A stretch of 64,000 bases of DNA from the IMG/VR virus record IMGVR_UViG_3300036766_002289, positions 28,056 through 92,055 of that record, one strand, 5' to 3'. The DNA is from a virus. Each line of letters begins with the position of its first letter. Position 1 is the stretch's first letter. A program made the position numbers and the translations under genes. A model generated the notes under the pieces. It saw nothing but the letters and a program-made list of their open reading frames with translations. It was not told where the DNA came from and searched no databases. Below are positions 13,156-62,978 of this stretch, one piece after another.

Positions 13156-13698
13156 ATGCCCTTAACTATGAAAAAGTGTAATAAATGTGGTCTAGAAAAA
13201 ACAGAATTTCATAAAAATACATCTTACTGTAAAGAGTGTAATATTGTTAGAGTTAAAGAGTGGGCAATACTTAATAAAGAAAAAATAACTAAAAACAGCG
13301 GTATCTATATAAAAGCTAAGCACTTTTTATTAAAGGCTATACTAGATGATATTAAACATGAGAATGGGTGTAGTTTTTGTGGAGAGAATGATGCGTGCTG
13401 TTTAGATTTTCATCATATTGCTAATAAATCTGATAATGTTTCTAAACTTCAACGAGATAAGAATGTTAAAAAGATTTGTGAAGAGTTGAATAAGTGTATC
13501 ATAGTATGCGCAAACTGTCATCGAAAATTACACGATGGGAAAATAAATATTGGCGTTAGAAAGCTATTTGACATTAGTTTAGAAGAATTTATTACTAGAG
13601 TAAGTAACAGAGCAGCAGAATTTCTTCCCGATGAAAAACGGGTTAGAAAATGGTTAATTGCTCCTAAAGCTGTAGCGGCACAAGCACCTGTCTCTTAA
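13156..13698 (+). CDS. HNH endonuclease
   Basis: CNKCG..CKECN Zn ribbon plus CLDFHH...CANCHRKLH; starts 6 nt after tRNA-Lys(CTT); its 3' end overlaps the next tRNA-like gene. Confidence 0.7.
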   Translation: MPLTMKKCNKCGLEKTEFHKNTSYCKECNIVRVKEWAILNKEKITKNSGIYIKAKHFLLKAILDDIKHENGCSFCGENDACCLDFHHIANKSDNVSKLQRDKNVKKICEELNKCIIVCANCHRKLHDGKINIGVRKLFDISLEEFITRVSNRAAEFLPDEKRVRKWLIAPKAVAAQAPVS

Positions 13699-13743
13699 AC
13701 AGGGGTCGTAATGACATTCCGAGTTCAAGTCTCGGTAGGGGCA
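13660..13743 (+). tRNA. atypical type-II-like tRNA (about 15-nt variable arm) with anticodon loop CTCTTAA (CTT)
   Basis: Acceptor GCTCCTA/TAGGGGC, anticodon arm CCTGT-CTCTTAA-ACAGG, variable arm GGTCGTAATGACATT, T-arm CCGAG-TTCAAGT-CTCGG. Confidence 0.4.
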
Positions 13744-13745
13744 CT

Positions 13746-25489: not shown

Positions 25490-26596
25490 ATGGAGGAACC
25501 AATGAAACTACCTACGCTTTATTCACGTCGTTCTGATGGCAAAGTCCAAATCTGGGAAAAAGAAATTGTAGACAATAAATACCGTACACATTCAGGCATT
25601 AAAGACGGTGAAATCGTCACTGCTGAGTGGACAGTGTGTGTAGAAAAGAACTTAGGCAAGACAAATTACATTGACGCCAAACATCAGGCAGTCACGGAAG
25701 CCAAGGCCGAATGGCAGAAGAAAAAAGATAAAGGTTATAAGGAAGATATCAAGGATATTGATAATTCCACTTTTTTTGAGCCGATGCTTGCCAAGGTTTG
25801 GCAGGATTATAAGGATGAGGCAATTTATCCTGCCTATGTCCAGCCTAAGTTAGACGGAATGCGTCTTATTGCAAATAAAGAAGGTCTGTGGACAAGGAAC
25901 GGCAAAGAGTATAAGTCTATTCCGCACATCTATGAAGCTCTGAAGCCTTTATTTAAATTCAACCCTAAATACATTTTTGACGGGGAGGTTTACGCGGATA
26001 AATTCGCGCACGATTTCAACAAAATCTGTTCGCTGGCTAAAAAGACTAAACCAACGGATGAAGACATTGCAGAGTCTGAGAAAAGTATTGAATATCATGT
26101 TTACGATTTCCCGTATTGGGATGATGTATTCAGTGCCCGTCATGCTGAGTTGCTTAAAGTCGCTAAGCATTTCAAGAACAAGAAATTAAAGATTGTTGAG
26201 ACGCATGAAGTTGCGTCTAGTAAAGAAATTGATACTCACTATGAGAAGTTTGTTCAGGACGGTTATGAGGGTTTAATGGTTCGCATGGATGCAAAGTATG
26301 AGAATAAGCGAACTAAGGTTCTGCTTAAGTATAAGGAATTTAAGGATGATGAGTATGAAATTTTGGATGTAGTGGAAGGTGTAGGCAATAAGAGTGGTGG
26401 TGCAGGGGCACTTGTTTGTAAGAACAAGGACAACAGCACGTTCCATTCTAACATTAAGGGCAATCGTGAGTTCTGTAAGGCCATGTTAATCAATAAGAAT
26501 GATTACATTGGCAAGATGGCGACTATTCAATTCTTTAATTTGACGGTGGATGGTGTGCCTCGATTCCCTTATTTCTTGAGGGTTCGTGATGAATAG
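25490..26596 (+). CDS. ATP-dependent DNA ligase (T7/PBCV-1-like minimal ligase)
   Basis: Adenylation motif I PKLDGMR (KxDG); motifs FDGEVY, EGLMV, LLKYK; ggagg RBS. Confidence 0.8.
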   Translation: MEEPMKLPTLYSRRSDGKVQIWEKEIVDNKYRTHSGIKDGEIVTAEWTVCVEKNLGKTNYIDAKHQAVTEAKAEWQKKKDKGYKEDIKDIDNSTFFEPMLAKVWQDYKDEAIYPAYVQPKLDGMRLIANKEGLWTRNGKEYKSIPHIYEALKPLFKFNPKYIFDGEVYADKFAHDFNKICSLAKKTKPTDEDIAESEKSIEYHVYDFPYWDDVFSARHAELLKVAKHFKNKKLKIVETHEVASSKEIDTHYEKFVQDGYEGLMVRMDAKYENKRTKVLLKYKEFKDDEYEILDVVEGVGNKSGGAGALVCKNKDNSTFHSNIKGNREFCKAMLINKNDYIGKMATIQFFNLTVDGVPRFPYFLRVRDE

Positions 26597-26721: not shown

Positions 26722-27090
26722 ATGTTCAAAATGAACGAGTTTGATTACGTGGAAAGTCTTGAATTTTCCGCTAGGATTAATGTATGCAGCGGTTTTAAAT
26801 GTGTGGTGAATAGTTTTCGGGATGATGAGATTATTCAGAAGTTAATTGCTGGGATGAGTGATTGGCGTAATCAGTTATCAGTTTTTGAGCGAGTGCAGTT
26901 AGTGTTGTTGAAAGATTCTGGAGGCGATGAATACGAACATCAGCATGACACAGCTATGGCGGCATATCTCTATGTACTTGGCCAGTGTAACATGGCTTTA
27001 GCTACATTGTGTTGTAATTTGGTGTTGGATATTGACCGTATATTTTGGGCACGCAAAATGGCGTGGGAATTAAAGTATGGACTGGCTTAA
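26722..27090 (+). CDS. hypothetical protein
   Basis: ORF 122 aa. Confidence 0.4.
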   Translation: MFKMNEFDYVESLEFSARINVCSGFKCVVNSFRDDEIIQKLIAGMSDWRNQLSVFERVQLVLLKDSGGDEYEHQHDTAMAAYLYVLGQCNMALATLCCNLVLDIDRIFWARKMAWELKYGLA

Positions 27091-27736
27091 ATTTGAAATC
27101 TTTGTCCGAGTCCTAATTTTTTATAGTATATTCAGCTTTTATGCCGAAGTTGATTTTGCTCAAGAAAACACAAGTAGCGGTTTTTGGTTATGGAGTGAGC
27201 GAATAGTCGCAATTCTATTTACTATTGAATATTTCTTAAGATGGAGTTGGTCAAAACATGGTTGGAAGTGGCCATTCACTTTTTATGCTGTTGTAGATTT
27301 ACTTGCAATTCTTCCTTTCTATGTTGGCCTTTTTGTTCAGCCACATCATCTTGGCGTTATTAGGTCTTTTCGTGTATTAAGGCTTTTAAAGCTTACACGT
27401 TACAGCATTGCCTTGGATAGGTTCTTGGAGAGTTTTAGAAGAATCAAGGACGAGTTGGCGATTATTGTAGTTTTCTTAATGATTGTTGTGTTTTTGGGGG
27501 CTACTTTATTATACGAATTTGAGCATCCTGCTCAACCTGATAAGATAACTTGTTTATCTGATGCTACTTGGCTTTGTTTTATTACCATCTCGACTATTGG
27601 CTACGGGGACATATTCCCAATAACATGGCCAGGAAGAATTGTTGTAATGGTCGTTTGTGTATTAGGGTTAGGTGTTTTTGGGTCATTTGTAAGTTTGCTG
27701 GGGAGTTCCCTAACTAACAAAGACTTGACAAAGTGA
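27077..27736 (+). CDS. voltage-gated potassium-channel-like protein (compact 6-TM Kv)
   Basis: K+ selectivity filter TISTIGYGD; S4-like IRSFRVLRLLKLTRYS with Arg at every third position; hydrophobic segments consistent with S1-S6. Confidence 0.7.
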   Translation: MDWLKFEIFVRVLIFYSIFSFYAEVDFAQENTSSGFWLWSERIVAILFTIEYFLRWSWSKHGWKWPFTFYAVVDLLAILPFYVGLFVQPHHLGVIRSFRVLRLLKLTRYSIALDRFLESFRRIKDELAIIVVFLMIVVFLGATLLYEFEHPAQPDKITCLSDATWLCFITISTIGYGDIFPITWPGRIVVMVVCVLGLGVFGSFVSLLGSSLTNKDLTK

Positions 27737-28381: not shown

Positions 28382-28672
28382 ATGCCTAATCAAGTGAAGT
28401 TTCGTGGCGGTCCTAATCTTACTTGGTATATTGTAACTGCTGTTTTGTTTGCCATTGATATCTATTATGGCATAGCATGGCTCGCTTCTAATCTAGCTAC
28501 TGCTGCTATTGTCTATTCTTATCTAAGATATAAGCATATTCCTATTATCAAAAGTCTACTTGATACTGACTGGTACAAGCTGACTATGGGGCAGGTAGTA
28601 TTTCGAAAATTCCCAAAAGCAATAGCAAAATATCATTTTATTAATCGCATGGTTAGAAGACGGCTACATTAA
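28382..28672 (+). CDS. small membrane protein
   Basis: aggagg RBS; two TM segments. Confidence 0.4.
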
Positions 28673-28730
28673 ACTTCGTGATATTACAAGAAACAAGGAT
28701 ATCGAGTTTAATTGCTACGGCAGCAAATTG

Positions 28731-29252
28731 ATGGGGTTTGATGGCAGGATTTATACCCAGAGCGGCATGAATATCATCGAAGTGATTTTTACAGAAATAA
28801 AAGATAAGATTATTGCCACCCCGCATATCGTTGCCAATGTTCTGGAACAGGCAACAAGATTTTACGATGGTGCAGTCGTCCAGAATTTGTTTGATGCTTA
28901 TTATGTATCCATTTTTCCTGTAAGCAAGGCTTGTCAGCAGATTGCACTGAGAGAATTGGATGGTCTTCGTGTTATCGACGCAAAATTCGAAGGTAAAATT
29001 CTGATGGTAGTTGCAGTCGATAAAAAGGGACACTACAATAGGTTTACTTTTGCCTTCAAGGACGATTGGAAGTCTTATGATATTGCCAAAAAGGAAAACA
29101 TCACTTACACTGGTTTGAATTTCACGGTGCTGGATAACGGCGTGTGTGTTCACATTGATGAAGATGAAAATATTGAAATTTTTCAAATAGGCAAGCTTGG
29201 TAGTGCAAAAGTTGTGACCGATGATGTAATTAATCACGATATGCTCTTGTAA
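28731..29252 (+). CDS. hypothetical protein
   Basis: ORF about 173 aa on the + strand, preferred over the antisense ORF 28653-29279. Confidence 0.45.
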   Translation: MGFDGRIYTQSGMNIIEVIFTEIKDKIIATPHIVANVLEQATRFYDGAVVQNLFDAYYVSIFPVSKACQQIALRELDGLRVIDAKFEGKILMVVAVDKKGHYNRFTFAFKDDWKSYDIAKKENITYTGLNFTVLDNGVCVHIDEDENIEIFQIGKLGSAKVVTDDVINHDMLL

Positions 29253-29315: not shown

Positions 29316-30107
29316 ATGAGCGAAGAAAACGAACAAGTTGATGAAAAGTGGGAATTGATCCAGAATTTGGAGTTGTCCACAGTTAAAGAACGTCTTCTTA
29401 ATAAGAAGAATTTCATATGGAAGTGGACACATGACTTGGATAAGGTAGAAGCTGAATACAGACAATTTCTGTACTTGGCTGCTACGCATCCTGACGATGT
29501 AATTGTGCCTTGGTCTGATGCCTTAGATGAATTCTGGCATATGCATATTCTGGACACTCGCAAGTATGAACAGGATTGCATGGCGATATTTGGCAAGATG
29601 TTTCATCATGACCCACATACGCCAATTGGTAGTGAAAAACAAGTAAGTAATTTTACTAATACTAAGAAGATTTACAGGGCAACCTTTAGGGATAGGGTTA
29701 CGTCTACTGCTTACGTAGGTTGTGGGGGCGTGTTCGAACCTGTATTTTGTTCTAGTTGCGCTGGGGTTGTGATAGATATTCAACCAGACGTTACACATAC
29801 TCAACCTGAAGATTCTAGCGTCGATAGTGTTGGTGGCGGGATTGTTGCAGGCGTAAGCGAAGCTGCAAATGGTGTTTCTATCGCGGTTTCAGATTCTGTA
29901 AGCAGTCCAGATAGCTCAGACAGTGGGTCCAGTCCAAGTAGTTGTGGTGGAAGTAGCAGTCCAGATAGCGGTAGCTCAGATAGTGGGTCCAGTTCTAGCT
30001 CAGATAGCGGTAGCTCAGATAGTGGTAGCTCTGGTAGTAGCTGTAGTGGCGGTGGCAGTTCTTGTGGTGGAGGAAGTAGTTGCGGCGGTGGTGGAGGCGG
30101 GGATTAA
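29316..30107 (+). CDS. hypothetical protein with C-terminal Ser/Asp/Gly-rich low-complexity tail
   Basis: ORF 263 aa; DSGSS repeats at the C-terminus. Confidence 0.5.
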   Translation: MSEENEQVDEKWELIQNLELSTVKERLLNKKNFIWKWTHDLDKVEAEYRQFLYLAATHPDDVIVPWSDALDEFWHMHILDTRKYEQDCMAIFGKMFHHDPHTPIGSEKQVSNFTNTKKIYRATFRDRVTSTAYVGCGGVFEPVFCSSCAGVVIDIQPDVTHTQPEDSSVDSVGGGIVAGVSEAANGVSIAVSDSVSSPDSSDSGSSPSSCGGSSSPDSGSSDSGSSSSSDSGSSDSGSSGSSCSGGGSSCGGGSSCGGGGGGD

Positions 30108-31387: not shown

Positions 31388-31599
31388 GTTGGAACTATAG
31401 AATAATGAAGCATGTGGACGATGGCGAAACATGGTATGGAATACACGAAGTCATCTATGACGAAGGAAAACTTAGTTATACAGAGACTGCATTTGCAATT
31501 GGGGATAGCCCCGAAGAATTGAAGTCTGTGTGCGAGATGATGTGTGAAGCTTTCAAAAAACCTATTTTGGAGTATGAAAATGAGCGAGAATCTACTTAA
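31384..31599 (+). CDS. hypothetical protein
   Basis: ORF 71 aa. Confidence 0.35.
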   Translation: MSWNYRIMKHVDDGETWYGIHEVIYDEGKLSYTETAFAIGDSPEELKSVCEMMCEAFKKPILEYENEREST

Positions 31600-32464
31600 A
31601 GCTTGTGGTCTGATCCTTGGTGTTGGTTTAGTTTGTGGCGTACTTTCGTTCTTTGTCTGGTTTCTCAATAGCTCCAATCCAGACGTGCCTGCTGGATATG
31701 TTGGCTATCAGACTCAAGGAGCAGTTTTTGGTCAAGGCAAGTTTTATGGAACATTAAAAGGCCCAGCTTCCCCAGGTCGAACATGGATGGTTAAGAGTTT
31801 CCCTGTTAGTATTACTCCTTACACTTACGCAGAAGAATTCTCTGGAGAGAGTGAAGTTCTTTCCAAGGACAATCTGAAGATTAATTACAGAATTCATATA
31901 GTATGGCGTATCAAGGAAGATAGTGTTAAGGATGCTGTGGAAAAATTCTCTACTATTGATACAACTGGTAAGATACAAGACCCAGAAAAAGTCGTAAAAG
32001 ACATTTATGGCAATTACCTTAAAGAACCACTTAGAACTTTTAGTCGAGATGAAGTGCAAAAGTTGAATTGGGTCGAAATCAAAGAAAAACAGGTCATTAT
32101 AGGGGATAACATCAAGAATAATATGCTTAAGTTAACAAAGGACACACCATTCGATATCATTAGTGTGGTTGTCGGCAATATCCAATATCCTAAAGTAGTA
32201 TCTGATGCAGTAGCAGATAATCTTGCTACAACACAGCATTTAGAGAAGGAAAGAAAAGATGCCGAACGAAGGGTTGTGCAGGCGGAAGGTATTGCTAAGT
32301 CTATGGAAATTATCAACCAAAGACTGACTTCACAATACTTGCAGCACGAGGCTATTGAAGCACAGAAGTCTATGGTTAATAGTCCTAATCATACGGTTAT
32401 CTACATTCCTGTAGGTAATATGGGTATTCCTTTGGTGGGGACTATTGATGCGGGTAAAAAATGA
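31578..32464 (+). CDS. SPFH/band-7 (HflK/C-like) domain membrane protein
   Basis: N-terminal TM segment; SPFH-like core ending ..QYLQHEAIEAQ..HTVIYIP. Confidence 0.55.
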
Positions 32465-55529: not shown

Positions 55530-58500
55530 GTGCAAGAGGTATTATATGACCGCATCGAAGTAACTTCCACGACCACGGGGTTAGGTGCGTTTGTTCTGCT
55601 GGGCGCGACCCCTGGCAATAGGCCATTCTCCATAGTTCCAGATGGAGATTCTATACCTTATTGTATAACCAATAATATCGACTATGAAATGGGTCTTGGA
55701 ACCGTCTCAGCAGGCGGCTCGATCCTTAGTAGAGACAAAGTTCTATCTAGCACCGCTGGTGGCGCGTTCATTAATTGGCCAGCAGGAACAAAAGAAGTAT
55801 TCCTAACAGCTACTTCAGACTTATTAACGCAAATAAATGTAGAATCTACACTAATCACCAGAGAAATGATTTCTGGTGGTCGTGCTGTTAATGTCAATAC
55901 ATCAGGATTAGCACAAATTGCTATGGCTGGCGATCCTACAAGAATGCCAGCCATTGGTGTAATGATAGACAACACCCTTTCTGGGCAACCAGCCAGAATT
56001 TATACCCGTTCACATCTATATTCAGATAAATTTAGTTATTCTGGCTATATTGGTTCTGAACTTTGGGTAGGAACTTCTGGTGATATAGTAACATCTGGTG
56101 GGATATCAGGCAATGTCCAGCAAATATTAGGCGTTGTAATCGCTCAATCTGGAATTTATTTGTCTCCTTCATTCCAAGTTCCTGGTACAACATTTAGTTT
56201 AACCTCTGGCATCATTACATCTGGGTTTATAGGCGATAATGCTGTCAATAGCGGCAACATTTCTAGTGGGCAAGTTGGCCAGTTTCACCTTGCTTCAGGT
56301 GCGGTTAATTCAGGGCATATTAGTAGCGGTGCAGTACAAGGTTTCTTTGGTAGCACAAGACACATAGCTTCAGGCACACTTGGCGTGTTTGATTTCGGCT
56401 CTGGCGCAGTAATAGCTGGTGCTGTTGGCTCAGGCGCAATTGTATCAGGAAATATAGCGTCAGGTCAAGTTGGCCAATTCCATATATCCTCTGGTGCCGT
56501 AACAAGTGGTAGATTAGGCGTTACTGGAACCCCAGACGGTACTAAGTTCTTAAGAGACGACTTCACATGGGCCACTCCAACTGTTGTAAGCGGTGCAATT
56601 CAATCAGGCATGATTGCTTCAGGTGCAGTCCAAGGCTTTTTTGGAAGTACAAGGAATATTGCTTCAGGAACAGTAGGTGTATTTGATTTTGGTAGTGGTG
56701 CAGTTATAGCAGGAACAGTTGGCAGTGGTGCAATTGTAAGTGGAAACATCGCTTCAGGTCAAGTCGGTCAATTCCATCTAGCGAGTGGTGCAGTTAATTC
56801 GGGTCACATAGGAAATAATGCTGTTGTAAGTGGTTCCATTGCATCTGGCCAGGTAAATACATATCACTTCGGTTCTGGAGCAACCGTTACAAGGGCACAA
56901 TTTGTCGCTCCATTTGTAAGCGGTACCCCTTGGACCGTAACTACAGAAGAAACCATATCTGGTGTAAGAGCAGTTGCATTTAGCCAAAGTGGTAATCTAG
57001 TAATTGCTATGGCAGGTGTTTCTGGTCGTGGCCCTGCAATAGGCATTGTAGTTGATAATGTTGCAAGTGGTACTCAAGCTAATGTTTATACTGTTGGGCC
57101 GCTACAATTTACTAGCGGCTTAGGTGATTATAGTGGTTATTTGGGTCAACCATTATACGTTGGACGTTCAGGACAAATTGTAACTGCGAGCGGTAGCTTC
57201 AATAGTGGTGGCTTCTTATCTGGTGATACGTTCCAGCAAATAGGTTATGCTTGGACTAGTGGTGGTGCCTTAATTGGCGTAAATGACCCTGTAATCAGCG
57301 GCGGCGTCCCATCATTAACTTCTGGCTTAGTACAATCTGGCAACATAGCATCTGGTGCAGTCCAGGGATTCTTTGGCAGCACAAGAAACATAGCTTCTGG
57401 TACAGTCGGCGTCTTCGATTTTGGTTCAGGCGCAGTTATAGCTGGGACAGTTGGCTCAGGTGCAATTGTAAGCGGAAACATCGCAAGCGGTCAAATAGGT
57501 CAGTTTCACATTGCAAGTGGTGCAGTTAATTCAGGTCATATAGGTAACAACGCAGTTGTATCAGGCTCAATTGCTTCTGGGCAGATCGGACAATTCCACA
57601 TTGCAAGTGGTGCAGTTAATTCTGGCCATATAGCATCAGGTGCCGTACAAGGTTTTTTTGGTTCAACAAGAAACATAGCAAGTGGTACTATAGGCGTTTT
57701 CGATTTCGGGTCTGGTGCTGTTATAGCAGGAACCGTTGGTAGTGGTGCAATTGTAAGTGGAAATATTGCTTCGGGTCAAGTCGGCCAGTTCCATATTTCT
57801 TCTGGTGCTGTAACAAGCGGCAGATTAGGAGTGACAGGAACACCAGACGGAACTAGATTCTTAAGAGACGATTTTGTTTGGGCTACTCCTACCGCAGCAG
57901 GTGTTACTAGCGGTGGCATTCAATCAGGTATGATTGCATCTGGCGCAGTCCAGGGCTTCTTTGGCTCAACAAGACACATAGCTTCGGGCACAGTAGGTGT
58001 ATTTGATTTTGGTTCAGGCGCAGTTATAGCTGGGACCGTTGGCAGTGGCGCAATTGTAAGTGGTAACATAGCAAGTGGTCAAATAGGTCAATTCCATCTT
58101 GCAAGCGGGGCTGTTAATTCAGGGCATATTGGCAACAACGCAGTCGTAAGTGGCTCAGTTGCAAGTGGTCAGTTATCAACATATCATTTCGGTTCTGGTG
58201 CAACGGTCACTAGGGCACAGTTTGTTTCGCCGTTCGTTAGCGGTACATCTTGGACAGCAATTACGGAAGAAACTATATCTGGTGTTCGTGCAGTTGCATT
58301 TAGTCAAAGCGGTAATTTAAGAATCGCAATGGCTAGCGTTTCGGGCAGAGGACCAGCCATTGGTGTAGTTATAGATAATGTTCTAAGCGGTTTACAGGCT
58401 AATGTTTATACTGTTGGTGCAGTCCAATTTACTAGTGGTTTAGGTGATTATAGTGGTTACATTGGTCAGCCATTATACGTAGGACGTTCAGGACAAGTTG

Positions 58501-61500
58501 TTACTGCGAGCGGTAGCTTCAACAGTGGCGGGTTCTTGTCTGGGGAAATGCTACAACAAATTGGTGTGGCATGGACAAGTGGTGGAGCATTAATTGGTGT
58601 GAATGACCCAATTGTTAGTGGTAGCGTTCCAGCATTAACTTCTGGTCTAGTCCAGTCTGGAAACATAGCATCTGGCGCAGTCCAAGGCTTTTTTGGAAGT
58701 ACAAGAAATATAGCTTCAGGCACAGTCGGTGTATTTGATTTTGGTTCAGGCGCAGTTATAGCAGGAACCGTTGGTAGTGGTGCAATTGTAAGTGGTAATA
58801 TAGCTTCAGGCCAAATTGGTCAATTCCACCTTGCATCTGGCTCAGTAACAAGTGGTGCAATTGCAAGTGGACAAGTAGGCCAGTTTGCTCATTCTTCTGG
58901 TGCAATTAATTCAGGACATGTATCTTCTGGTGCCGTTCAAGGTTTCTTTGGCTCAACAAGACACATAGCTTCAGGCACAATAGGCGTATTTGATTTCGGC
59001 TCAGGCGCAGTTATAGCAGGAACCGTTGGCAGTGGAGCAATTGTAAGTGGTAATATAGCTTCAGGTCAAGTTGGTAATTTTGCCATATCTTCTGGCGCAG
59101 TAACAAGTGGGCGATTAGGCGTCACAGGAACCCCAGATGGAACTAAGTTTTTAAGGGATGACTTTACTTGGTCCAGCCCAATTATAAGTGGCAGCATTCA
59201 ATCAGGCATGATTGCTTCAGGTGCAGTGCAAGGCTTCTTTGGAAGTACGAGAAATATTGCTTCAGGCACTGTAGGCGTGTTTGATTTTGGTTCGGGTGCA
59301 GTTATAGCTGGGACCGTTGGCAGTGGCGCAATTGTAAGTGGAAATATTGCTTCAGGCCAAATTGGTCAATTCCACCTTGCAAGTGGTGCAGTTAATTCGG
59401 GTCATATAGGTAATAATGCAGTTGTAAGCGGTTCAGTTGCCAGTGGCCAACTTTCAATATATCATTTCGCATCAGGAGCAACAGTCACAAGGGCACAGTT
59501 CGTTGCTCCATTTGTAAGTGGTACATCTTGGACAGTAATTACAGAAGAAACCATATCTGGTGTAAGAGCAGTTGCATTTAGCCAAAGTGGCACACTTAGA
59601 GTTGCAATGGCCAGTATTTCTGGTCGATATCCAGCAATCGGTGTCGTTGTAGACAACGTTCTAAGTGGTTTACAGGCCAACGTTTACACTGTTGGCCCAT
59701 TGCAGTTTACTAGTGGTTTAGGCGATTATAGTGGTTATTTGGGTCAACCACTATATGTTGGTCGTTCAGGACAAGTTGTAACCGCGAGCGGTAGTTTCAA
59801 TAGCGGTGGATTATTGTCTGGCGATATGACCCAGCAAATAGGTTTTGCTTGGACAAGCGGTGGCGCACTCATAGAAGTAAATGCACCATTTGTAAGTGGT
59901 GGTGTCCCAGCATTAACAAGTGGCTTAGTCCAATCTGGTAACATAGCATCAGGTGCAGTACAAGGTTTCTTCGGCTCTACTAGGAATATTGCAAGTGGAA
60001 CCGTAGGCGTCTTCGATTTTGGTTCAGGCGCAGTTATAGCAGGGACCGTTGGCAGCGGTGCAATTGTAAGTGGAAACATCGCTTCAGGTCAGATAGGTCA
60101 ATTCCACTTGGCTTCTGGTTCAGTAACAAGTGGTGCAATAGCAAGTGGACAAGTAGGCCAGTTTGCTCATTCAAGTGGCAGTGTAACGAGTGGTGCAATA
60201 GCTTCAGGTCAAGTTGGTCAATTTGCTCATTCTTCTGGCGCAATTAATAGTGGTCATGTTTCAAGTGGTGCGGTCCAGGGCTTCTTTGGCTCAACAAGAC
60301 ACATCGCTTCAGGCACAGTAGGCGTATTTGATTTTGGTAGTGGTGCAGTAATAGCAGGAACCGTTGGTAGCGGTGCAATTGTAAGCGGTAATATAGCAAG
60401 TGGTCAAGTAGGACAGTTCCACCTATCATCAGGCAGTGTAACTTCAGGTGCCATTTCAAGTGGTGTTGTAGGTCAGTTTGCACTTTCAAGTGGCTCAGTA
60501 ACAAGCGGTGCGATTTCAAGTGGTCAAGTAAATACTTATCATTTCGGCAGTGGTGCAACTGTCACTAGGGCACAATTCGTCGCTCCATTTGTAAGTGGTA
60601 CATCTTGGACAGTAATTACAGAAGAAATAATTTCAGGTGTAAGAGCAGTTGCATTAAGCCAAAGCGGTACTTTAAGGGTCGCTATGGCCAGTATTTCTGG
60701 TCGATACCCAGCAATCGGTGTGGTCGTAGACAACGTTCTAAGCGGTTTACAAGCTAATGTATACACTGTAGGACCGCTCCAGTTTACAAGCGGGTTGGGT
60801 GATTATAGTGGTTATTTGGGTCAACCATTATATGTTGGTCGTTCAGGACAAGTTGTTACTTCAAGCGGCAGCTTCAATAGTGGTGGATTGCTTTCTGGTG
60901 ATATGACCCAGCAAATAGGTTACGCCTGGACTAGTGGCGGTGCCTTAATAGAGGTCAATGCACCATTTGTAAGTGGTAGTGTTCCGTCATTAACAAGTGG
61001 TTTAGTCCAGAGTGGCAATATTGCTAGTGGTGCCGTACAAGGCTTCTTCGGAAGTACGAGAAACATAGCTTCAGGCACAGTAGGTGTATTTGATTTTGGT
61101 TCTGGTGCAGTTATAGCAGGAACAGTTGGTTCAGGTGCAATTGTAAGCGGAAATATAGCTTCAGGCCAAATTGGTCAATTCCACCTTGCAAGTGGCAGTG
61201 TAACTTCAGGTGCAATAGCAAGTGGACAAGTAGGCCAGTTCGCCCTTTCAAGTGGTTCAGTAACGAGTGGTGCAATAGCTTCAGGTCAAGTAGGACAATT
61301 TGCTCATTCTTCTGGCGCAATTAATAGTGGTCATGTTTCAAGTGGCGCAGTCCAGGGCTTCTTTGGCTCGACAAGACATATAGCAAGTGGTACTGTAGGC
61401 GTGTTTGATTTTGGTTCAGGTGCAGTTATAGCAGGAACAGTTGGCAGTGGAGCAATTGTAAGCGGTAATATAGCTTCAGGCCAAGTAGGACAATTTCATC

Positions 61501-62978
61501 TATCATCAGGCAGTGTAACTTCAGGTGCTATATCTTCGGGTGTTGTAGGCCAATTTGCACTAAGTTCTGGCTCAGTAACGAGTGGTGCAATATCATCTGG
61601 TCAAGTAAACACTTACCATTTTGGTTCTGGAGCAACAGTAACTAGGGCACAATTTGTTGCTCCATTTGTGAGTGGAACATCTTGGACAATAATTACAGAA
61701 GAAACTATATCAGGCGTAAAAGCAGTAGCACTAAGCCAGAGTGGCACACTTAGAGTTGCAATGGCCAGTATTTCTGGTCGATATCCAGCAATCGGTGTCG
61801 TTGTAGACAACGTTCTAAGTGGTTTACAAGCTAATGTATACACTGTTGGTCCGCTCCAGTTTACTAGCGGGTTAGGCGATTATAGTGGTTACATTGGTCA
61901 GCCATTGTATGTTGGTCGTTCAGGACAAGTTGTAACAAGCTCTGGCAGCTTCAACAGTGGTGGATTGTTGTCTGGCGATATGACCCAGCAAATAGGTTTT
62001 GCTTGGACAAGTGGCGGCGCACTCATAGAGGTTAATGCCCCATTTGTAAGCGGTGGAACTCCAACTTTAACATCAGGTATAGTCCAAAGTGGCAACATCG
62101 GTTCGGGTGCAGTCCAAGGCTTCTTTGGCAGTACACGTAACATAGCTTCAGGCACAGTCGGTGTATTTGACTTTGGTTCAGGTGCAGTTATAGCAGGAAC
62201 AGTTGGTAGCGGTGCAATTGTAAGCGGAAACATTGCAAGTGGTCAGATTGGTCAATTCCACTTGGCTTCTGGTTCAGTAACTTCAGGTGCAATAGCAAGT
62301 GGACAAGTAGGCCAGTTTGCTCTAAGTTCAGGCTCTGTAACAAGTGGTGCAATTGCTTCTGGGCAGATAAGTCAGTTTAAGTTAGCATCAGGTGCGGTTA
62401 ATAGTGGCCATATTGGTTCTGGTGCAGTCCAAGGCTTTTTTGGCTCAACAAGACACATCGCTTCAGGCACAGTGGGCGTATTTGATTTTGGTAGTGGTGC
62501 AGTAATAGCAGGAACAGTTGGGTCTGGTGCAATTGTAAGTGGAAATGTCGCAAGTGGTCAAATAGCAGATTTCCATTTTGCATCTGGTGCAAAAATAAAC
62601 GTGGCGGGTTGGATCACTGATACAGCATTGGTTGCAGGTACGCCAATTTCTGGCAGCTGTGCAGTTTCTGTTGACGCAAGTGGCCACCTAATTCAAAGTA
62701 ACCCAACACTATCTGGTCAGTTCCCAATTTATGGCATTGCAGACGGGGCACTTGTGTCTGGTTCTGCTGGTATTATAAGATTAATGGGACCATTTACATC
62801 TACAGAGTTTAACTTCTCTGGCAGTATCGGTAGAGTTTTGTATGTCGGTTTAAGTGGTCAAATAACCCCAACAATGCCTTCACTATCTGGTGTCTTTACA
62901 CAGAAAGTTGGCATTGCAACTAGCCATTCTGGTATGTTGGTTAGAATAGATAACCAATTCATACAAATTGGCTTATAA
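55530..62978 (+). CDS. giant repeat protein (2482 aa), putative tail fibre/adhesin
   Basis: Single ORF; five or more tandem units of about 360-440 aa, each built from about 60-aa SGAVQGFFGSTRNIASGTVGVFDFGSGAVIAGTVGSGAIVSGNIASGQ subrepeats; unique N- and C-terminal domains. Confidence 0.8.
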   Translation: MQEVLYDRIEVTSTTTGLGAFVLLGATPGNRPFSIVPDGDSIPYCITNNIDYEMGLGTVSAGGSILSRDKVLSSTAGGAFINWPAGTKEVFLTATSDLLTQINVESTLITREMISGGRAVNVNTSGLAQIAMAGDPTRMPAIGVMIDNTLSGQPARIYTRSHLYSDKFSYSGYIGSELWVGTSGDIVTSGGISGNVQQILGVVIAQSGIYLSPSFQVPGTTFSLTSGIITSGFIGDNAVNSGNISSGQVGQFHLASGAVNSGHISSGAVQGFFGSTRHIASGTLGVFDFGSGAVIAGAVGSGAIVSGNIASGQVGQFHISSGAVTSGRLGVTGTPDGTKFLRDDFTWATPTVVSGAIQSGMIASGAVQGFFGSTRNIASGTVGVFDFGSGAVIAGTVGSGAIVSGNIASGQVGQFHLASGAVNSGHIGNNAVVSGSIASGQVNTYHFGSGATVTRAQFVAPFVSGTPWTVTTEETISGVRAVAFSQSGNLVIAMAGVSGRGPAIGIVVDNVASGTQANVYTVGPLQFTSGLGDYSGYLGQPLYVGRSGQIVTASGSFNSGGFLSGDTFQQIGYAWTSGGALIGVNDPVISGGVPSLTSGLVQSGNIASGAVQGFFGSTRNIASGTVGVFDFGSGAVIAGTVGSGAIVSGNIASGQIGQFHIASGAVNSGHIGNNAVVSGSIASGQIGQFHIASGAVNSGHIASGAVQGFFGSTRNIASGTIGVFDFGSGAVIAGTVGSGAIVSGNIASGQVGQFHISSGAVTSGRLGVTGTPDGTRFLRDDFVWATPTAAGVTSGGIQSGMIASGAVQGFFGSTRHIASGTVGVFDFGSGAVIAGTVGSGAIVSGNIASGQIGQFHLASGAVNSGHIGNNAVVSGSVASGQLSTYHFGSGATVTRAQFVSPFVSGTSWTAITEETISGVRAVAFSQSGNLRIAMASVSGRGPAIGVVIDNVLSGLQANVYTVGAVQFTSGLGDYSGYIGQPLYVGRSGQVVTASGSFNSGGFLSGEMLQQIGVAWTSGGALIGVNDPIVSGSVPALTSGLVQSGNIASGAVQGFFGSTRNIASGTVGVFDFGSGAVIAGTVGSGAIVSGNIASGQIGQFHLASGSVTSGAIASGQVGQFAHSSGAINSGHVSSGAVQGFFGSTRHIASGTIGVFDFGSGAVIAGTVGSGAIVSGNIASGQVGNFAISSGAVTSGRLGVTGTPDGTKFLRDDFTWSSPIISGSIQSGMIASGAVQGFFGSTRNIASGTVGVFDFGSGAVIAGTVGSGAIVSGNIASGQIGQFHLASGAVNSGHIGNNAVVSGSVASGQLSIYHFASGATVTRAQFVAPFVSGTSWTVITEETISGVRAVAFSQSGTLRVAMASISGRYPAIGVVVDNVLSGLQANVYTVGPLQFTSGLGDYSGYLGQPLYVGRSGQVVTASGSFNSGGLLSGDMTQQIGFAWTSGGALIEVNAPFVSGGVPALTSGLVQSGNIASGAVQGFFGSTRNIASGTVGVFDFGSGAVIAGTVGSGAIVSGNIASGQIGQFHLASGSVTSGAIASGQVGQFAHSSGSVTSGAIASGQVGQFAHSSGAINSGHVSSGAVQGFFGSTRHIASGTVGVFDFGSGAVIAGTVGSGAIVSGNIASGQVGQFHLSSGSVTSGAISSGVVGQFALSSGSVTSGAISSGQVNTYHFGSGATVTRAQFVAPFVSGTSWTVITEEIISGVRAVALSQSGTLRVAMASISGRYPAIGVVVDNVLSGLQANVYTVGPLQFTSGLGDYSGYLGQPLYVGRSGQVVTSSGSFNSGGLLSGDMTQQIGYAWTSGGALIEVNAPFVSGSVPSLTSGLVQSGNIASGAVQGFFGSTRNIASGTVGVFDFGSGAVIAGTVGSGAIVSGNIASGQIGQFHLASGSVTSGAIASGQVGQFALSSGSVTSGAIASGQVGQFAHSSGAINSGHVSSGAVQGFFGSTRHIASGTVGVFDFGSGAVIAGTVGSGAIVSGNIASGQVGQFHLSSGSVTSGAISSGVVGQFALSSGSVTSGAISSGQVNTYHFGSGATVTRAQFVAPFVSGTSWTIITEETISGVKAVALSQSGTLRVAMASISGRYPAIGVVVDNVLSGLQANVYTVGPLQFTSGLGDYSGYIGQPLYVGRSGQVVTSSGSFNSGGLLSGDMTQQIGFAWTSGGALIEVNAPFVSGGTPTLTSGIVQSGNIGSGAVQGFFGSTRNIASGTVGVFDFGSGAVIAGTVGSGAIVSGNIASGQIGQFHLASGSVTSGAIASGQVGQFALSSGSVTSGAIASGQISQFKLASGAVNSGHIGSGAVQGFFGSTRHIASGTVGVFDFGSGAVIAGTVGSGAIVSGNVASGQIADFHFASGAKINVAGWITDTALVAGTPISGSCAVSVDASGHLIQSNPTLSGQFPIYGIADGALVSGSAGIIRLMGPFTSTEFNFSGSIGRVLYVGLSGQITPTMPSLSGVFTQKVGIATSHSGMLVRIDNQFIQIGL
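56918..62750 (+). repeat. tandem 1.1-1.3 kb DNA repeats inside the giant gene (about 85-95% identical)
   Basis: Unit landmarks at about 56918, 58238, 59515, 60592 and 61671. Confidence 0.7.

What the first reader, a model, noticed from the sequence alone, without database searches (positions are those of the whole stretch)
27077..27736. Phage-encoded compact voltage-gated K+ channel
The protein carries a canonical TISTIGYGD selectivity filter and an S4-like IRSFRVLRLLKLTRYS segment, with hydrophobic segments consistent with S1-S6, all in 219 aa. A voltage-sensor-containing K+ channel in a bacteriophage is rare; known viral K+ channels are mostly chlorovirus Kcv-type pores. It could depolarise the host or exclude superinfection.
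Basis: seen in the sequence. Interest (0 to 1): 0.7.

Follow-up and report, generated by a model that had tools for sequence, protein, structure and literature searches.

The report
Huge-phage voltage-gated potassium channel gene
A roughly 590-kb bacteriophage carries an intact, well-conserved gene for a minimal Shaker-type voltage-gated potassium channel, which is real and untested by experiment but already appears in sequence databases and is not a new kind of protein.

Summary
ORF 27077-27736 (+) encodes a 219-aa protein with every sequence hallmark of a voltage-gated K+ channel:
- Filter T170-ISTIGYGD-178.
- S4 charges R96, R99, R102, K105 and R108.
- Charge-transfer centre F48/E51/D74.
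- Hinge glycine G197.

The setting is a huge phage. The window has 39 tRNA genes, nearly all ORFs on one strand and a tail-fibre-like giant ORF. Close relatives sit on contigs of 590 and 596 kb.

The gene keeps its place (ligase, small ORF, channel, NAPRTase) across a robust phage clade. Synonymous sites are saturated (pS 0.81) while pN is 0.10, so it is kept by selection.

It is not unprecedented:
- JGI already names this exact protein "voltage-gated potassium channel".
- PHROG 7872 matches it.
- Halorubrum virus Humcor1 and Dulem virus 33 encode full 6TM GYGD channels.
- At least 146 IMG/VR contigs carry relatives, about 30 of them in temperate-phage lysogeny modules.

I found no paper that characterises any of them. 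The physiological role is inferred only. The most likely one is control of host membrane potential and K+ flux during a long infection. Verdict: new member of a known kind, moderate interest.

The parts
27077..27736 (+). Complete gene for the 219-aa voltage-gated-type K+ channel (stop codon included)
   Evidence: ORF list and translation; Pfam Ion_trans 2.9e-24 and Ion_trans_2 7e-15; phrog_7872 4e-31; AF2 pLDDT 89.7
27083..27157 (+). S1 helix (aa 3-27)
   Evidence: AF2/DSSP helix 3-27
27182..27250 (+). S2 helix (aa 36-58). Carries E41, F48 and E51 (the aromatic and acidic residues of the charge-transfer centre) and R55
   Evidence: AF2 helix 36-58. E51 is invariant and E41, F48, R55 are at least 90% conserved in 60 homologues. 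'FTIEYFLRW' aligns to Kv2.1 'FTMEYLLRF'
27260..27334 (+). S3 helix (aa 62-86) with the invariant D74 and P80 (VVDLLAILPFY)
   Evidence: AF2 helices 62-67 and 69-86; invariant columns; aligns to Kv2.1 'IDLLAILPYY'
27341..27400 (+). S4 voltage-sensor helix (aa 89-108) with R96, R99, R102, K105, R108 at every third position
   Evidence: Sequence; AF2 helix 89-108; all five charges at least 90% conserved and invariant or nearly so across the viral set
27407..27442 (+). S4-S5 linker helix (aa 111-122)
27446..27523 (+). S5 outer pore helix (aa 124-149), ending in the invariant E149
   Evidence: AF2 helix 124-149; E149 invariant
27554..27610 (+). Pore helix (aa 160-172) and K+ selectivity filter T170-I-S-T-I-G-Y-G-D178
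   Evidence: AF2 helix 160-172. G175, Y176, G177, D178 invariant and T170, T173 at least 90% conserved
27626..27730 (+). S6 inner helix (aa 184-218) with the conserved hinge glycine G197. Only about 9 residues of cytoplasmic tail follow
   Evidence: AF2 helix 184-218. G197 at least 90% conserved and invariant in the viral set
26722..27090 (+). Upstream 122-aa orphan ORF whose stop overlaps the channel start by 14 nt. It always sits next to the channel in this phage clade, and its function is unknown
   Evidence: ORF list. Orthologues directly upstream of the channel in L001, L167, L168, L170. 43-51% identical to its L001, L167 and L168 counterparts, against 84-87% for the channel. No Pfam, PHROG or PADLOC match. 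AF2 uninformative, pLDDT 44
25490..26596 (+). ATP-dependent DNA ligase, the conserved upstream anchor of the syntenic block (context, not part of the channel)
   Evidence: Pfam DNA_ligase_A_M and OB_2; phrog_114 9e-71; 87% identical in L001

Best explanation
The gene encodes a working, minimal Shaker-type voltage-gated K+ channel. It has four voltage-sensor helices (S1-S4) joined by an S4-S5 linker helix to a K+-selective pore (S5, pore helix, S6), and almost no cytoplasmic domains. It is a conserved accessory gene of a clade of huge phages with genomes of about 590-600 kb.

Inferred steps: the protein is made in the infected cell and inserted into the host cytoplasmic membrane, where four copies form one pore. 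The S4 charges move when the membrane potential changes and open the S6 gate, most likely on depolarisation as in the domain-swapped Kv channels the model resembles. K+ then flows and pulls the membrane potential towards the K+ equilibrium potential. This would let the phage buffer host membrane potential and K+ content during a long, membrane-stressing infection.

Shown here by computation: the intact ORF, all hallmark residues, the fold, the phage context, conserved gene order and purifying selection. Inferred only: tetramer assembly, K+ conduction, gating polarity, membrane targeting and the physiological role.

My confidence is about 0.9 for the molecular identity and about 0.35 for the specific physiological role.
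For: Identity:
- Pfam Ion_trans and Ion_trans_2.
- PDB sequence hits to Kv2.1, Kv4.2, Kv1.2 and KvAP.
- Invariant or near-invariant filter, S4 charges, F48/E51/D74 and G197 in 60 homologues.
- AF2 pLDDT 89.7 with S1-S6, linker and pore helix.
- Foldseek TM-score 0.70-0.78 to Kv4, Kv2 and Kv1.
- Loop charges obey the positive-inside rule for the standard Kv topology.

A maintained phage gene:
- 39 tRNA genes, ligase and tail fibre in the window.
- The same gene order in L001 (596 kb), L007 (373-kb IMG/VR contig), L167, L168, L169 and L170.
- Clade bootstrap 193-200 of 200.
- pN 0.098 against a saturated pS of 0.81.
- GC and GC3 like the neighbouring genes, so no sign of recent capture.
- The gene lies among metabolic and accessory genes, about 28 kb upstream of the tail-fibre-like ORF, the only structural-type gene recognised in the window.

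Role:
- In four phage-like contigs with related channels (L008, L012, L016, L178), a PspA/IM30-like gene lies just upstream of the channel. From established knowledge, PspA proteins preserve membrane integrity and proton-motive force.
- The window itself has a Band_7/SPFH membrane-scaffold gene 4 kb downstream.
- L001 and L168 have a membrane fatty-acid hydroxylase gene abutting the channel.
Against: There are no functional data of any kind.
- Gating polarity cannot be read from sequence. The nearest NCBIfam model is the hyperpolarisation-activated MVP channel, although far below its cut-off (45.7 against 300 bits).
- The domain-swapped arrangement comes from a single-chain AF2 model, which may copy its training structures.
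- The PspA link is seen only in relatives whose grouping with the window clade has under 50% bootstrap support. No PspA-like gene lies in this 64-kb window.
- A related 595-kb phage (LR756511, ligase 68% identical) has no channel, so the gene is dispensable in the wider group.
- Promoter-like sites are no more frequent than chance, so expression timing is unknown.
Confidence: 0.5

Rival explanations
1. One reading: the channel harms host energetics on purpose. By passing K+ it collapses or shifts the membrane potential, which blocks DNA entry by superinfecting phages or sets the time of lysis, much as chlorovirus Kcv depolarises its algal host.
For: About 30 IMG/VR temperate-phage contigs, and Dulem virus 33, place a related channel between an Xre-type repressor and the integrase. 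That is the usual site for superinfection-immunity genes expressed from a prophage. Greiner et al. [quoted passage not shown]
Against: Tailed phages have no internal membrane to deliver a channel at entry (established knowledge), and the gene is not in a structural module. A depolarisation-opened K+ channel in a cell with high internal K+ drives the potential towards a negative K+ equilibrium potential, so it counters depolarisation. None of the proteins in this block reached significance against known defence-system models: the eight nearest had no hit at all, and Band_7 gave only a marginal E=0.008 match. The lysogeny-module channels are distant (24-37% identity) and come from a different kind of phage.
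Confidence: 0.2
2. The channel is a K+ supply route. It allows K+ uptake, driven by the membrane potential, to balance charge and osmotic pressure while the cell makes very large amounts of phage DNA and protein. It would compensate for K+ lost at infection.
For: The gene sits among metabolic helper genes: DNA ligase, NAPRTase (intact in relatives), purC-like, methionine aminopeptidase and many tRNAs. The closest NCBIfam model is an inward-conducting, hyperpolarisation-activated channel, though well below its cut-off.
Against: The predicted architecture is the domain-swapped type typical of depolarisation-activated Kv channels. Uptake through a channel works only when the membrane potential is more negative than the K+ equilibrium potential. 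No other K+-transport genes lie nearby.
Confidence: 0.15
3. The S1-S4 domain no longer senses voltage, as in MlotiK1 or E. coli Kch. The protein would then be a constitutive K+ leak, or a channel gated by a partner protein, possibly the co-translated upstream 122-aa ORF.
For: The upstream ORF is always adjacent, and in the window and L001 its end overlaps the channel start. There are no cytoplasmic domains on the channel to receive other signals.
Against: Five S4 charges and the complete F48/E51/D74 charge-transfer centre, plus E41, are conserved across the clade and the wider family. That conservation would not be expected for a vestigial sensor. The upstream ORF evolves much faster (43-51% against 84-87% identity) and has no recognisable fold.
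Confidence: 0.1
4. The gene is a passenger: a recently captured or decaying host gene with no role for the phage. Alternatively, the window is cellular DNA or a misassembly.
For: Phage accessory regions do collect host genes. The neighbouring NAPRTase is truncated in this genome. A related 595-kb phage lacks the channel.
Against: The ORF is intact and lies in the same place in at least four diverged phage lineages, with saturated synonymous change but pN of only 0.10. The best cellular relatives are only 37-50% identical. Composition matches the neighbours. An independent assembly (L170) gives the identical locus. The window has phage hallmarks.
Confidence: 0.05

Closest known systems
Prokaryotic 6TM voltage-gated K+ channels (KvAP of Aeropyrum pernix, KvLm of Listeria, MVP of Methanocaldococcus; Pfam PF00520 with a GYGD filter)
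   Same: Same domain plan and size class: S1-S4 sensor plus pore, about 210-295 aa, with few or no cytoplasmic domains. Same filter, S4 charge ladder and acidic counter-charges. KvAP is hit at 2e-12. Thousands of bacterial and archaeal relatives of 211-260 aa exist.
   Different: Encoded by a huge phage. Only 37-50% identical to any cellular sequence found. Very short S3-S4 loop (about 8 residues) and a 9-residue C-terminal tail. The model matches domain-swapped Shaker-type subunits rather than non-swapped ones; from my own knowledge, the KvAP cryo-EM structure is non-swapped. Well below the MVP equivalog cut-off.
Eukaryotic Shaker-type channels Kv1-Kv4 (transmembrane core)
   Different: No T1 tetramerisation domain, no N-terminal inactivation ball, no PVP motif in S6, no C-terminal domain, and much shorter S1-S2 and S3-S4 loops. 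It lacks the outermost S4 arginine (glycine at the Shaker R1 position, by my alignment of the 'KLTRYS' motif).
Kcv-type miniature viral K+ channels of chloroviruses and other algal viruses
   Same: Virus-encoded, GYGD filter, minimal size for its class, tetrameric pore expected.
   Different: Kcv channels are 2TM pore modules of about 80-125 aa with no voltage sensor, and they are carried in the virion's internal membrane (PMC6163359). BFVD structure hits to such proteins cover only about 80-130 residues of the pore region. This protein has a full sensor, and tailed phages have no membrane to carry it.
K+ channels of phages listed by Greiner et al. 2018 (Vibrio phages phi-pp2 and nt-1, Mycobacterium phage Myrna, Acinetobacter phage ME3, Lactobacillus phage PLE)
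   Same: Phage-encoded proteins with the K+ filter and unknown function. The authors propose repeated independent capture from cells.
   Different: Nearly all are 2TM proteins of 117-228 aa. None is described there as having a voltage sensor. The best BFVD hit, a 149-aa protein, aligns over 101 residues only.
Annotated 6TM 'ion transport proteins' of prokaryotic viruses: Halorubrum virus Humcor1 (MW344765, 276 aa), Dulem virus 33 (PP511792, 235 aa), and PHROG family 7872
   Same: The same class: a virus of a prokaryote encoding S1-S6 with a charged S4 and a T-T-x-GYGD filter. phrog_7872 matches residues 6-215 at 4e-31.
   Different: Only 25-30% identical. Those are 40-46-kb viruses, and the Dulem virus 33 gene sits in a lysogeny module. 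This one belongs to a clade of 590-600-kb phages with its own conserved neighbourhood.

Membership tests
Voltage-gated K+ channel (6TM Kv type; Pfam Ion_trans PF00520 with a K+ pore) | Significant match to the family profile over S1-S6 | tested here: met
   Ion_trans 86 bits (cut-off 25), residues 6-212 on profile positions 4-233 of 241; Ion_trans_2 55 bits (cut-off 22.5)
Voltage-gated K+ channel (6TM Kv type; Pfam Ion_trans PF00520 with a K+ pore) | Six transmembrane helices with a re-entrant pore helix between S5 and S6 | tested here: met
   AF2 pLDDT 89.7 with helices 3-27, 36-58, 62-86, 89-108, 124-149 and 184-218, and a pore helix at 160-172. Loop charges fit the positive-inside rule
Voltage-gated K+ channel (6TM Kv type; Pfam Ion_trans PF00520 with a K+ pore) | K+ selectivity signature TxxTxGYGD | tested here: met
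   T170-I-S-T173-I-G175-Y-G-D178; GYGD invariant in 60 homologues
Voltage-gated K+ channel (6TM Kv type; Pfam Ion_trans PF00520 with a K+ pore) | S4 with at least four basic residues at every third position | tested here: met
   R96, R99, R102, K105, R108, each at least 90% conserved
Voltage-gated K+ channel (6TM Kv type; Pfam Ion_trans PF00520 with a K+ pore) | Charge-transfer centre: aromatic and acidic residues in S2, acidic residue in S3 | tested here: met
   F48 and E51 in 'FTIEY', D74 in 'VDLLAILP'. They align to the Kv2.1 S2 and S3 motifs and are invariant or near-invariant
Voltage-gated K+ channel (6TM Kv type; Pfam Ion_trans PF00520 with a K+ pore) | S4-S5 linker helix and S6 hinge or gate that couple the sensor to the pore | tested here: met
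Voltage-gated K+ channel (6TM Kv type; Pfam Ion_trans PF00520 with a K+ pore) | Tetramer that conducts K+ selectively, with voltage-dependent open probability | not testable with these tools
   Needs electrophysiology or flux assays. Only single-chain structure prediction was available
Kcv-type miniature viral K+ channels | 2TM pore-only subunit of about 80-125 aa with no voltage-sensor domain | tested here: not met
   219 aa with a complete S1-S4. BFVD hits to viral K+ channels cover only the pore
MVP-type hyperpolarisation-activated K+ channel (NCBIfam NF040645) | Score above the equivalog cut-off | tested here: not met
   45.7 bits against a cut-off of 300
Kch / RCK- or CNBD-regulated 6TM K+ channels (E. 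coli Kch NF007828, MlotiK1) | C-terminal RCK/TrkA or cyclic-nucleotide-binding domain | tested here: not met
   The protein ends 9 residues after S6 and no such Pfam domain is found. Kch model scores 37 bits against a cut-off of 425
Bacterial voltage-gated Na+ channels (BacNav, also in Pfam Ion_trans) | Na+/Ca2+-type filter (TLESW-like) instead of GYG | tested here: not met
PHROG 7872 (phage protein family, function unknown) | Significant full-length profile match | tested here: met
   E=4.2e-31, residues 6-215 on profile positions 15-217 of 254
Known anti-phage defence systems (PADLOC) | Match of the channel or its neighbours to a defence-system model | tested here: not met
   No hit for the channel or for seven neighbouring proteins. 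Band_7 gave only a marginal hit at E=0.008

The most novel reading that the evidence does not exclude
Large lytic phages may carry a lineage of Kv-type channels as part of a kit for keeping the host membrane energised. In several relatives the channel is physically linked to a PspA/IM30-like gene and to an unnamed 230-aa gene. In this clade it lies near a Band_7/SPFH gene and, in some members, a lipid hydroxylase gene. In this reading the channel works as a repolarising clamp. It would hold the host membrane potential against damage from infection, or against abortive-infection defences that kill by depolarising the membrane. That would make it a new type of phage counter-defence or host-maintenance function. 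The 219-aa protein would also be one of the smallest natural Shaker-like channels available for structural and biophysical work.
Probability: 0.2. Interest if true: 0.7.

Novelty: new member of a known kind. Interest (0 to 1): 0.4.

Why it matters
If the channel works as predicted, some of the largest known phages take direct electrical control of the host membrane with a true voltage-gated channel. This goes beyond holins or pore-only channels.

That bears on an old question: how phages manage host K+ and membrane potential between DNA entry and lysis. It would also give a concrete gene to test.

The protein is a stripped-down Shaker-type channel of 219 aa with no accessory domains. Natural variants are available from several phage lineages, which makes it attractive for structural and gating studies.

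It does not change what kinds of proteins are known. Pipelines already label it correctly, and similar genes are present, though unstudied, in other viruses of bacteria and archaea.

Tried and rejected
(1) Megablast of 15 kb around the gene against 50,697 phage records found nothing, so the phage itself has not been deposited there.

(2) The 'Acinetobacter phage MD-2021a' hits looked like precedents. They are bacterial contigs carrying acnB and ydhP, so I discarded them.

(3) The upstream 122-aa ORF was tested as a possible channel partner or T1-like domain.
- No Pfam, PHROG or PADLOC match.
- Only clade-restricted homologues.
- The AF2 model is unusable at pLDDT 44.
No conclusion could be drawn.

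(4) The idea of a virus-specific Kv lineage. A neighbour-joining tree places the window clade with other phage-like contigs and almost no GTDB genomes. With bootstrapping, nodes beyond the huge-phage clade have under 50% support. That group also contains bacterial-context genes, P0007 and P0016. The idea is not established.

(5) A scan of IMG/VR for PspA-like relatives, meant to measure how often they sit next to a channel, failed. The derived peptide patterns were too degenerate and confirmed no hits.

(6) The promoter and terminator scan was no better than shuffled sequence.

(7) Rfam found only a tRNA in 24-31 kb. Nothing there, such as an intron, explains the truncated NAPRTase.

(8) Six literature searches for phage voltage-gated K+ channels, plus one for Humcor1, found no paper that characterises one. 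Greiner et al. 2018 is the nearest survey.

(9) Al-Shayeb et al. 2020 does not mention channels or potassium in its main text.
Full report
**Observation**

The two quoted motifs are present.
- TISTIGYGD is residues 170-178.
- IRSFRVLRLLKLTRYS is residues 95-110, with R96, R99, R102, K105 and R108 spaced three apart.

The match to the channel family is not a chance resemblance.
- Pfam Ion_trans scores 86 bits (E=2.9e-24) over residues 6-212, almost the whole profile. Ion_trans_2 scores 55 bits.
- phmmer against all PDB chains returns 217 sequences, led by Kv2.1 (5e-22), Kv4.2, Kv3.1, the Kv1.2 paddle chimera and KvAP.
- An exhaustive HMMER scan of 1.84 billion representative proteins finds 14,477 relatives at E<=1e-3.

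**Anatomy**

A 60-sequence alignment (A1) shows which residues matter.
- Invariant: E51, Y52, D74, P80, E149, G175-Y-G-D178, P181, T183, G186.
- At least 90% conserved: E41, F48, R55, all five S4 charges, T170, T173 and G197.

In the HMMER alignment to rat Kv2.1, 'FTIEYFLRW' lies on the S2 motif 'FTMEYLLRF'. 'VVDLLAILPFY' lies on the S3 motif 'IDLLAILPYY', and the S4 ladder is in register. The protein therefore has the aromatic and acidic residues of the gating charge-transfer centre (F48, E51, D74) and an outer acidic residue (E41).

By register with the Shaker 'FKLSRHS' motif (my own knowledge), the five charges correspond to R2, R3, R4, K5 and R6. The R1 position is a glycine.

AlphaFold2 with this alignment gives a confident model (mean pLDDT 89.7, no segment below 50). 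Its elements are:

| Element | Residues |
|---|---|
| S1 | 3-27 |
| S2 | 36-58 |
| S3 | 62-86 |
| S4 | 89-108 |
| S4-S5 linker helix | 111-122 |
| S5 | 124-149 |
| Pore helix | 160-172 |
| S6 | 184-218 |

The cytoplasmic loops hold the basic residues: 3 in S2-S3, 4 in the linker and 2 in the tail. The S1-S2 and S3-S4 loops hold none, which fits the usual Kv topology.

- Foldseek against PDB is led by Kv4.2, Kv4.3, Kv2.1, Kv1.x and Shaker, with query TM-scores of 0.70-0.78.

The model therefore has the Shaker-type, domain-swapped relation between sensor and pore. This comes from a single-chain prediction and is an inference.

There is no T1, RCK or cyclic-nucleotide-binding domain. The chain ends 9 residues after S6.

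**Is it a phage gene?**

Yes.
- The 64-kb window has 39 tRNA genes and nearly all long ORFs on the + strand.
- It has an ATP-dependent ligase of a phage family (phrog_114, 9e-71) and a 2482-aa ORF matching tail-fibre and virion-protein families.
- Its helper genes are typical of huge phages: methionine aminopeptidase, DNA and other methyltransferases, a ThiF-family protein and a purC-like gene.
- The identical channel protein is recorded on a 590,099-bp JGI contig. So is the upstream ORF (P0271).
- An 84%-identical orthologue lies on a 596-kb JGI contig (L001), and the same gene lies on a 373-kb IMG/VR contig (L007).
- Al-Shayeb et al. 2020 state that the largest circular phage genome before their work was 596 kb, citing Paez-Espino et al. 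2016. L001 is probably that genome, but I could not confirm it.
- The ligase's best deposited match is a 595-kb 'uncultured phage', LR756511, at 68% identity.

**Conservation**

The block of ligase, small ORF, channel, 55-64-aa ORF and NAPRTase recurs in L001, L167, L168 and L169. An independent assembly, L170, is identical to the window.
- The huge-phage channel clade has 193-200 of 200 bootstrap support.
- Between the window and L001 genes, synonymous sites are saturated (pS 0.81) while pN is 0.098. That indicates strong purifying selection over a long divergence.
- GC and GC3 are like those of neighbouring genes.
- The gene is not universal. LR756511 has the ligase but no channel anywhere.
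- The closest sequences in cellular contexts are only 40-50% identical: P0007 and P0016, next to SDF, YbjQ and DUF309 genes.
- The best of more than 516 hits in GTDB species genomes are 37-43% identical and spread over many phyla.

No donor can be named.

**Precedent**

In 50,697 deposited phage records, tblastn finds six hits.
- Two are bacterial contigs mislabelled as phage.
- Two are short unannotated contigs.
- Two are real: Halorubrum virus Humcor1, a cultured archaeal tailed virus whose 276-aa protein is already annotated 'pfam00520, six predicted transmembrane domains', and Dulem virus 33, with a 235-aa protein.

Both real hits have a charged S4 and a T-T-x-GYGD filter.

- PHROG 7872 (function 'unknown') matches the full length of the window protein.
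- A pattern-limited scan of IMG/VR confirms 146 contigs with relatives.
- Clustering the neighbours shows that about 30 of these contigs have the layout Xre-type repressor, channel, integrase. That is a gene in a temperate phage's lysogeny module.
- BFVD holds only pore-module matches.
- Greiner et al. 2018 catalogued phage K+ channels. Almost all were 2TM proteins, and their function was left open.
- Six literature searches for phage voltage-gated K+ channels found no paper that characterises one.
- JGI's pipeline already names the window protein 'voltage-gated potassium channel'.

A length of 219 aa is ordinary for prokaryotic members.

**Mechanism**

What is shown is the molecular equipment: a K+ filter, a complete voltage sensor, a coupling linker and a hinge glycine, all under selection.

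What is inferred runs as follows. Tailed phages have no membrane (established knowledge), and the gene sits among accessory genes about 28 kb upstream of the tail-fibre-like ORF. The channel must therefore be made after infection and inserted into the host's inner membrane as a tetramer. If it gates like the domain-swapped Kv channels it resembles, it opens when the membrane depolarises. Bacterial cytoplasm holds far more K+ than most environments, so K+ would leave and push the potential back towards a strongly negative K+ equilibrium value.

I therefore favour a role in stabilising host membrane potential and K+ balance during a long infection.

Circumstantial support comes from neighbouring genes.
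- In four phage-like contigs with related channels (L008, L012, L016, L178), a PspA/IM30-like gene and an unnamed 230-aa gene ('family X') lie directly upstream of the channel. L003 has family X about 4 kb upstream. From established knowledge, PspA proteins protect membrane integrity and proton-motive force.
- The window has a Band_7/SPFH gene 4 kb downstream.
- L001 and L168 have a membrane fatty-acid hydroxylase gene abutting the channel.

Against this:
- The link between those contigs and the window clade is weakly supported.
- No PspA-like gene lies in this window.
- Gating polarity is unknown.

The rival roles remain open: deliberate depolarisation or superinfection exclusion, K+ uptake, a vestigial sensor, or a passenger gene. 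Only the passenger and not-phage readings are largely excluded.

**Comparison and verdict**

The protein works like, and passes every testable membership criterion of, the 6TM voltage-gated K+ channel family.
- It is not a Kcv-type channel (no 2TM-only architecture).
- It is not an MVP or Kch equivalog (far below cut-offs).
- It is not a BacNav channel (GYGD filter).
- It matches no known defence system.

It is a new member of a kind that is already present in databases but uncharacterised: Kv-type channels encoded by viruses of prokaryotes. Its distinguishing point is stable residence in a clade of 590-600-kb phages.

Interest is moderate at 0.4. The gene is a good, testable candidate for how a giant phage manages host membrane electricity, and a neat minimal Kv channel. 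It is neither a new protein type nor a new observation for annotation pipelines.

Noticed in passing
window 28382-29252: The nicotinate phosphoribosyltransferase gene is truncated. Only the first ~89 residues survive, as a 96-aa ORF at 28382-28672. A 174-aa ORF with no family match follows at 28728-29252. Relatives L001, L167 and L168 have an intact 439-449-aa NAPRTase at this position. An independent assembly (L170) shows the same truncation, so it is real and not an assembly error. Rfam finds no intron there.
   Followed up: partly
L008 2876-6960; L012 4550-6741; L016 4169-6585; L178 5437-7750; L003 3463-4176: A recurring cassette in phage-like contigs: an unnamed ~230-aa protein ('family X', conserved motifs PLELQ.xNPL and YWDFWR, no Pfam match), then a PspA/IM30-like protein with an N-terminal TM helix, then a Kv-type channel. 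L008 also carries a T4-gp15-like tail sheath stabiliser. This may be a phage membrane-stress module.
   Followed up: partly
IMG/VR loci L010-L076 (about 30 of them) and L173 (Dulem virus 33): In many 10-60-kb temperate-phage contigs, a more distant Kv-type channel gene sits between an Xre-type HTH repressor gene and a tyrosine or serine integrase gene. This is the typical position of a gene expressed from a prophage. Some of these contigs also carry a reverse transcriptase nearby.
   Followed up: partly
window 8345-46458: 39 tRNA genes on the + strand, scattered among small ORFs. Many are duplicated (for example three Pro-TGG, three Asn-GTT and three Gly-TCC). One is an unusually long 85-nt tRNA-Lys(CTT) at 13660-13744.
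   Followed up: no
L001 10672-11223 (-) and L168 4478-5029 (-): A fatty-acid hydroxylase superfamily gene lies on the opposite strand, abutting the 3' end of the channel gene in two relatives. It is absent from the window and from L167, where only ~86-300 nt follow the channel.
   Followed up: no
window 31544-32464: A Band_7/SPFH (stomatin/HflK-like) membrane protein gene with an N-terminal TM segment, 4 kb downstream of the channel (phrog_200 1e-29; Pfam Band_7 on the identical L170 gene).
   Followed up: no
window 29316-30107: A 263-aa ORF whose C-terminal ~90 residues are an extreme Ser/Gly/Asp/Cys low-complexity run (…SSDSGSSPSSCGGSSSPDSGSSDSGSSSSSDSG…GGGGGGD). No family match.
   Followed up: no
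INPHARED records CAKLQH020000004.1 and CAKLQF020000002.1 (L171): Records named 'Acinetobacter phage MD-2021a' (232 and 305 kb). The inspected record (L171) carries ordinary bacterial genes (acnB, ydhP) around its 'ion transport protein', so both look like mislabelled bacterial contigs.
   Followed up: yes
L175 / L176 (TARA and NCBI metagenome contigs, up to 137 kb): Another channel relative (P0015, 41% identity, seen on 15 contigs) lies in a large phage-like genome beside SmpB, a PARP/WGR protein, an RNA ligase, a LAGLIDADG endonuclease and a PTH2-like gene.
   Followed up: no
L177 6153-7783: In a bacterial contig, two Ion_trans/GYGD-type channel genes lie in tandem next to SDF, YbjQ_1 and DUF309 genes. 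The same neighbourhood surrounds P0007, the closest cellular-context relative at 50% identity.
   Followed up: no
window 55530-62978: A 2482-aa ORF with matches to tail-fibre and virion structural protein families, and higher GC (0.45) than the rest of the window.
   Followed up: no
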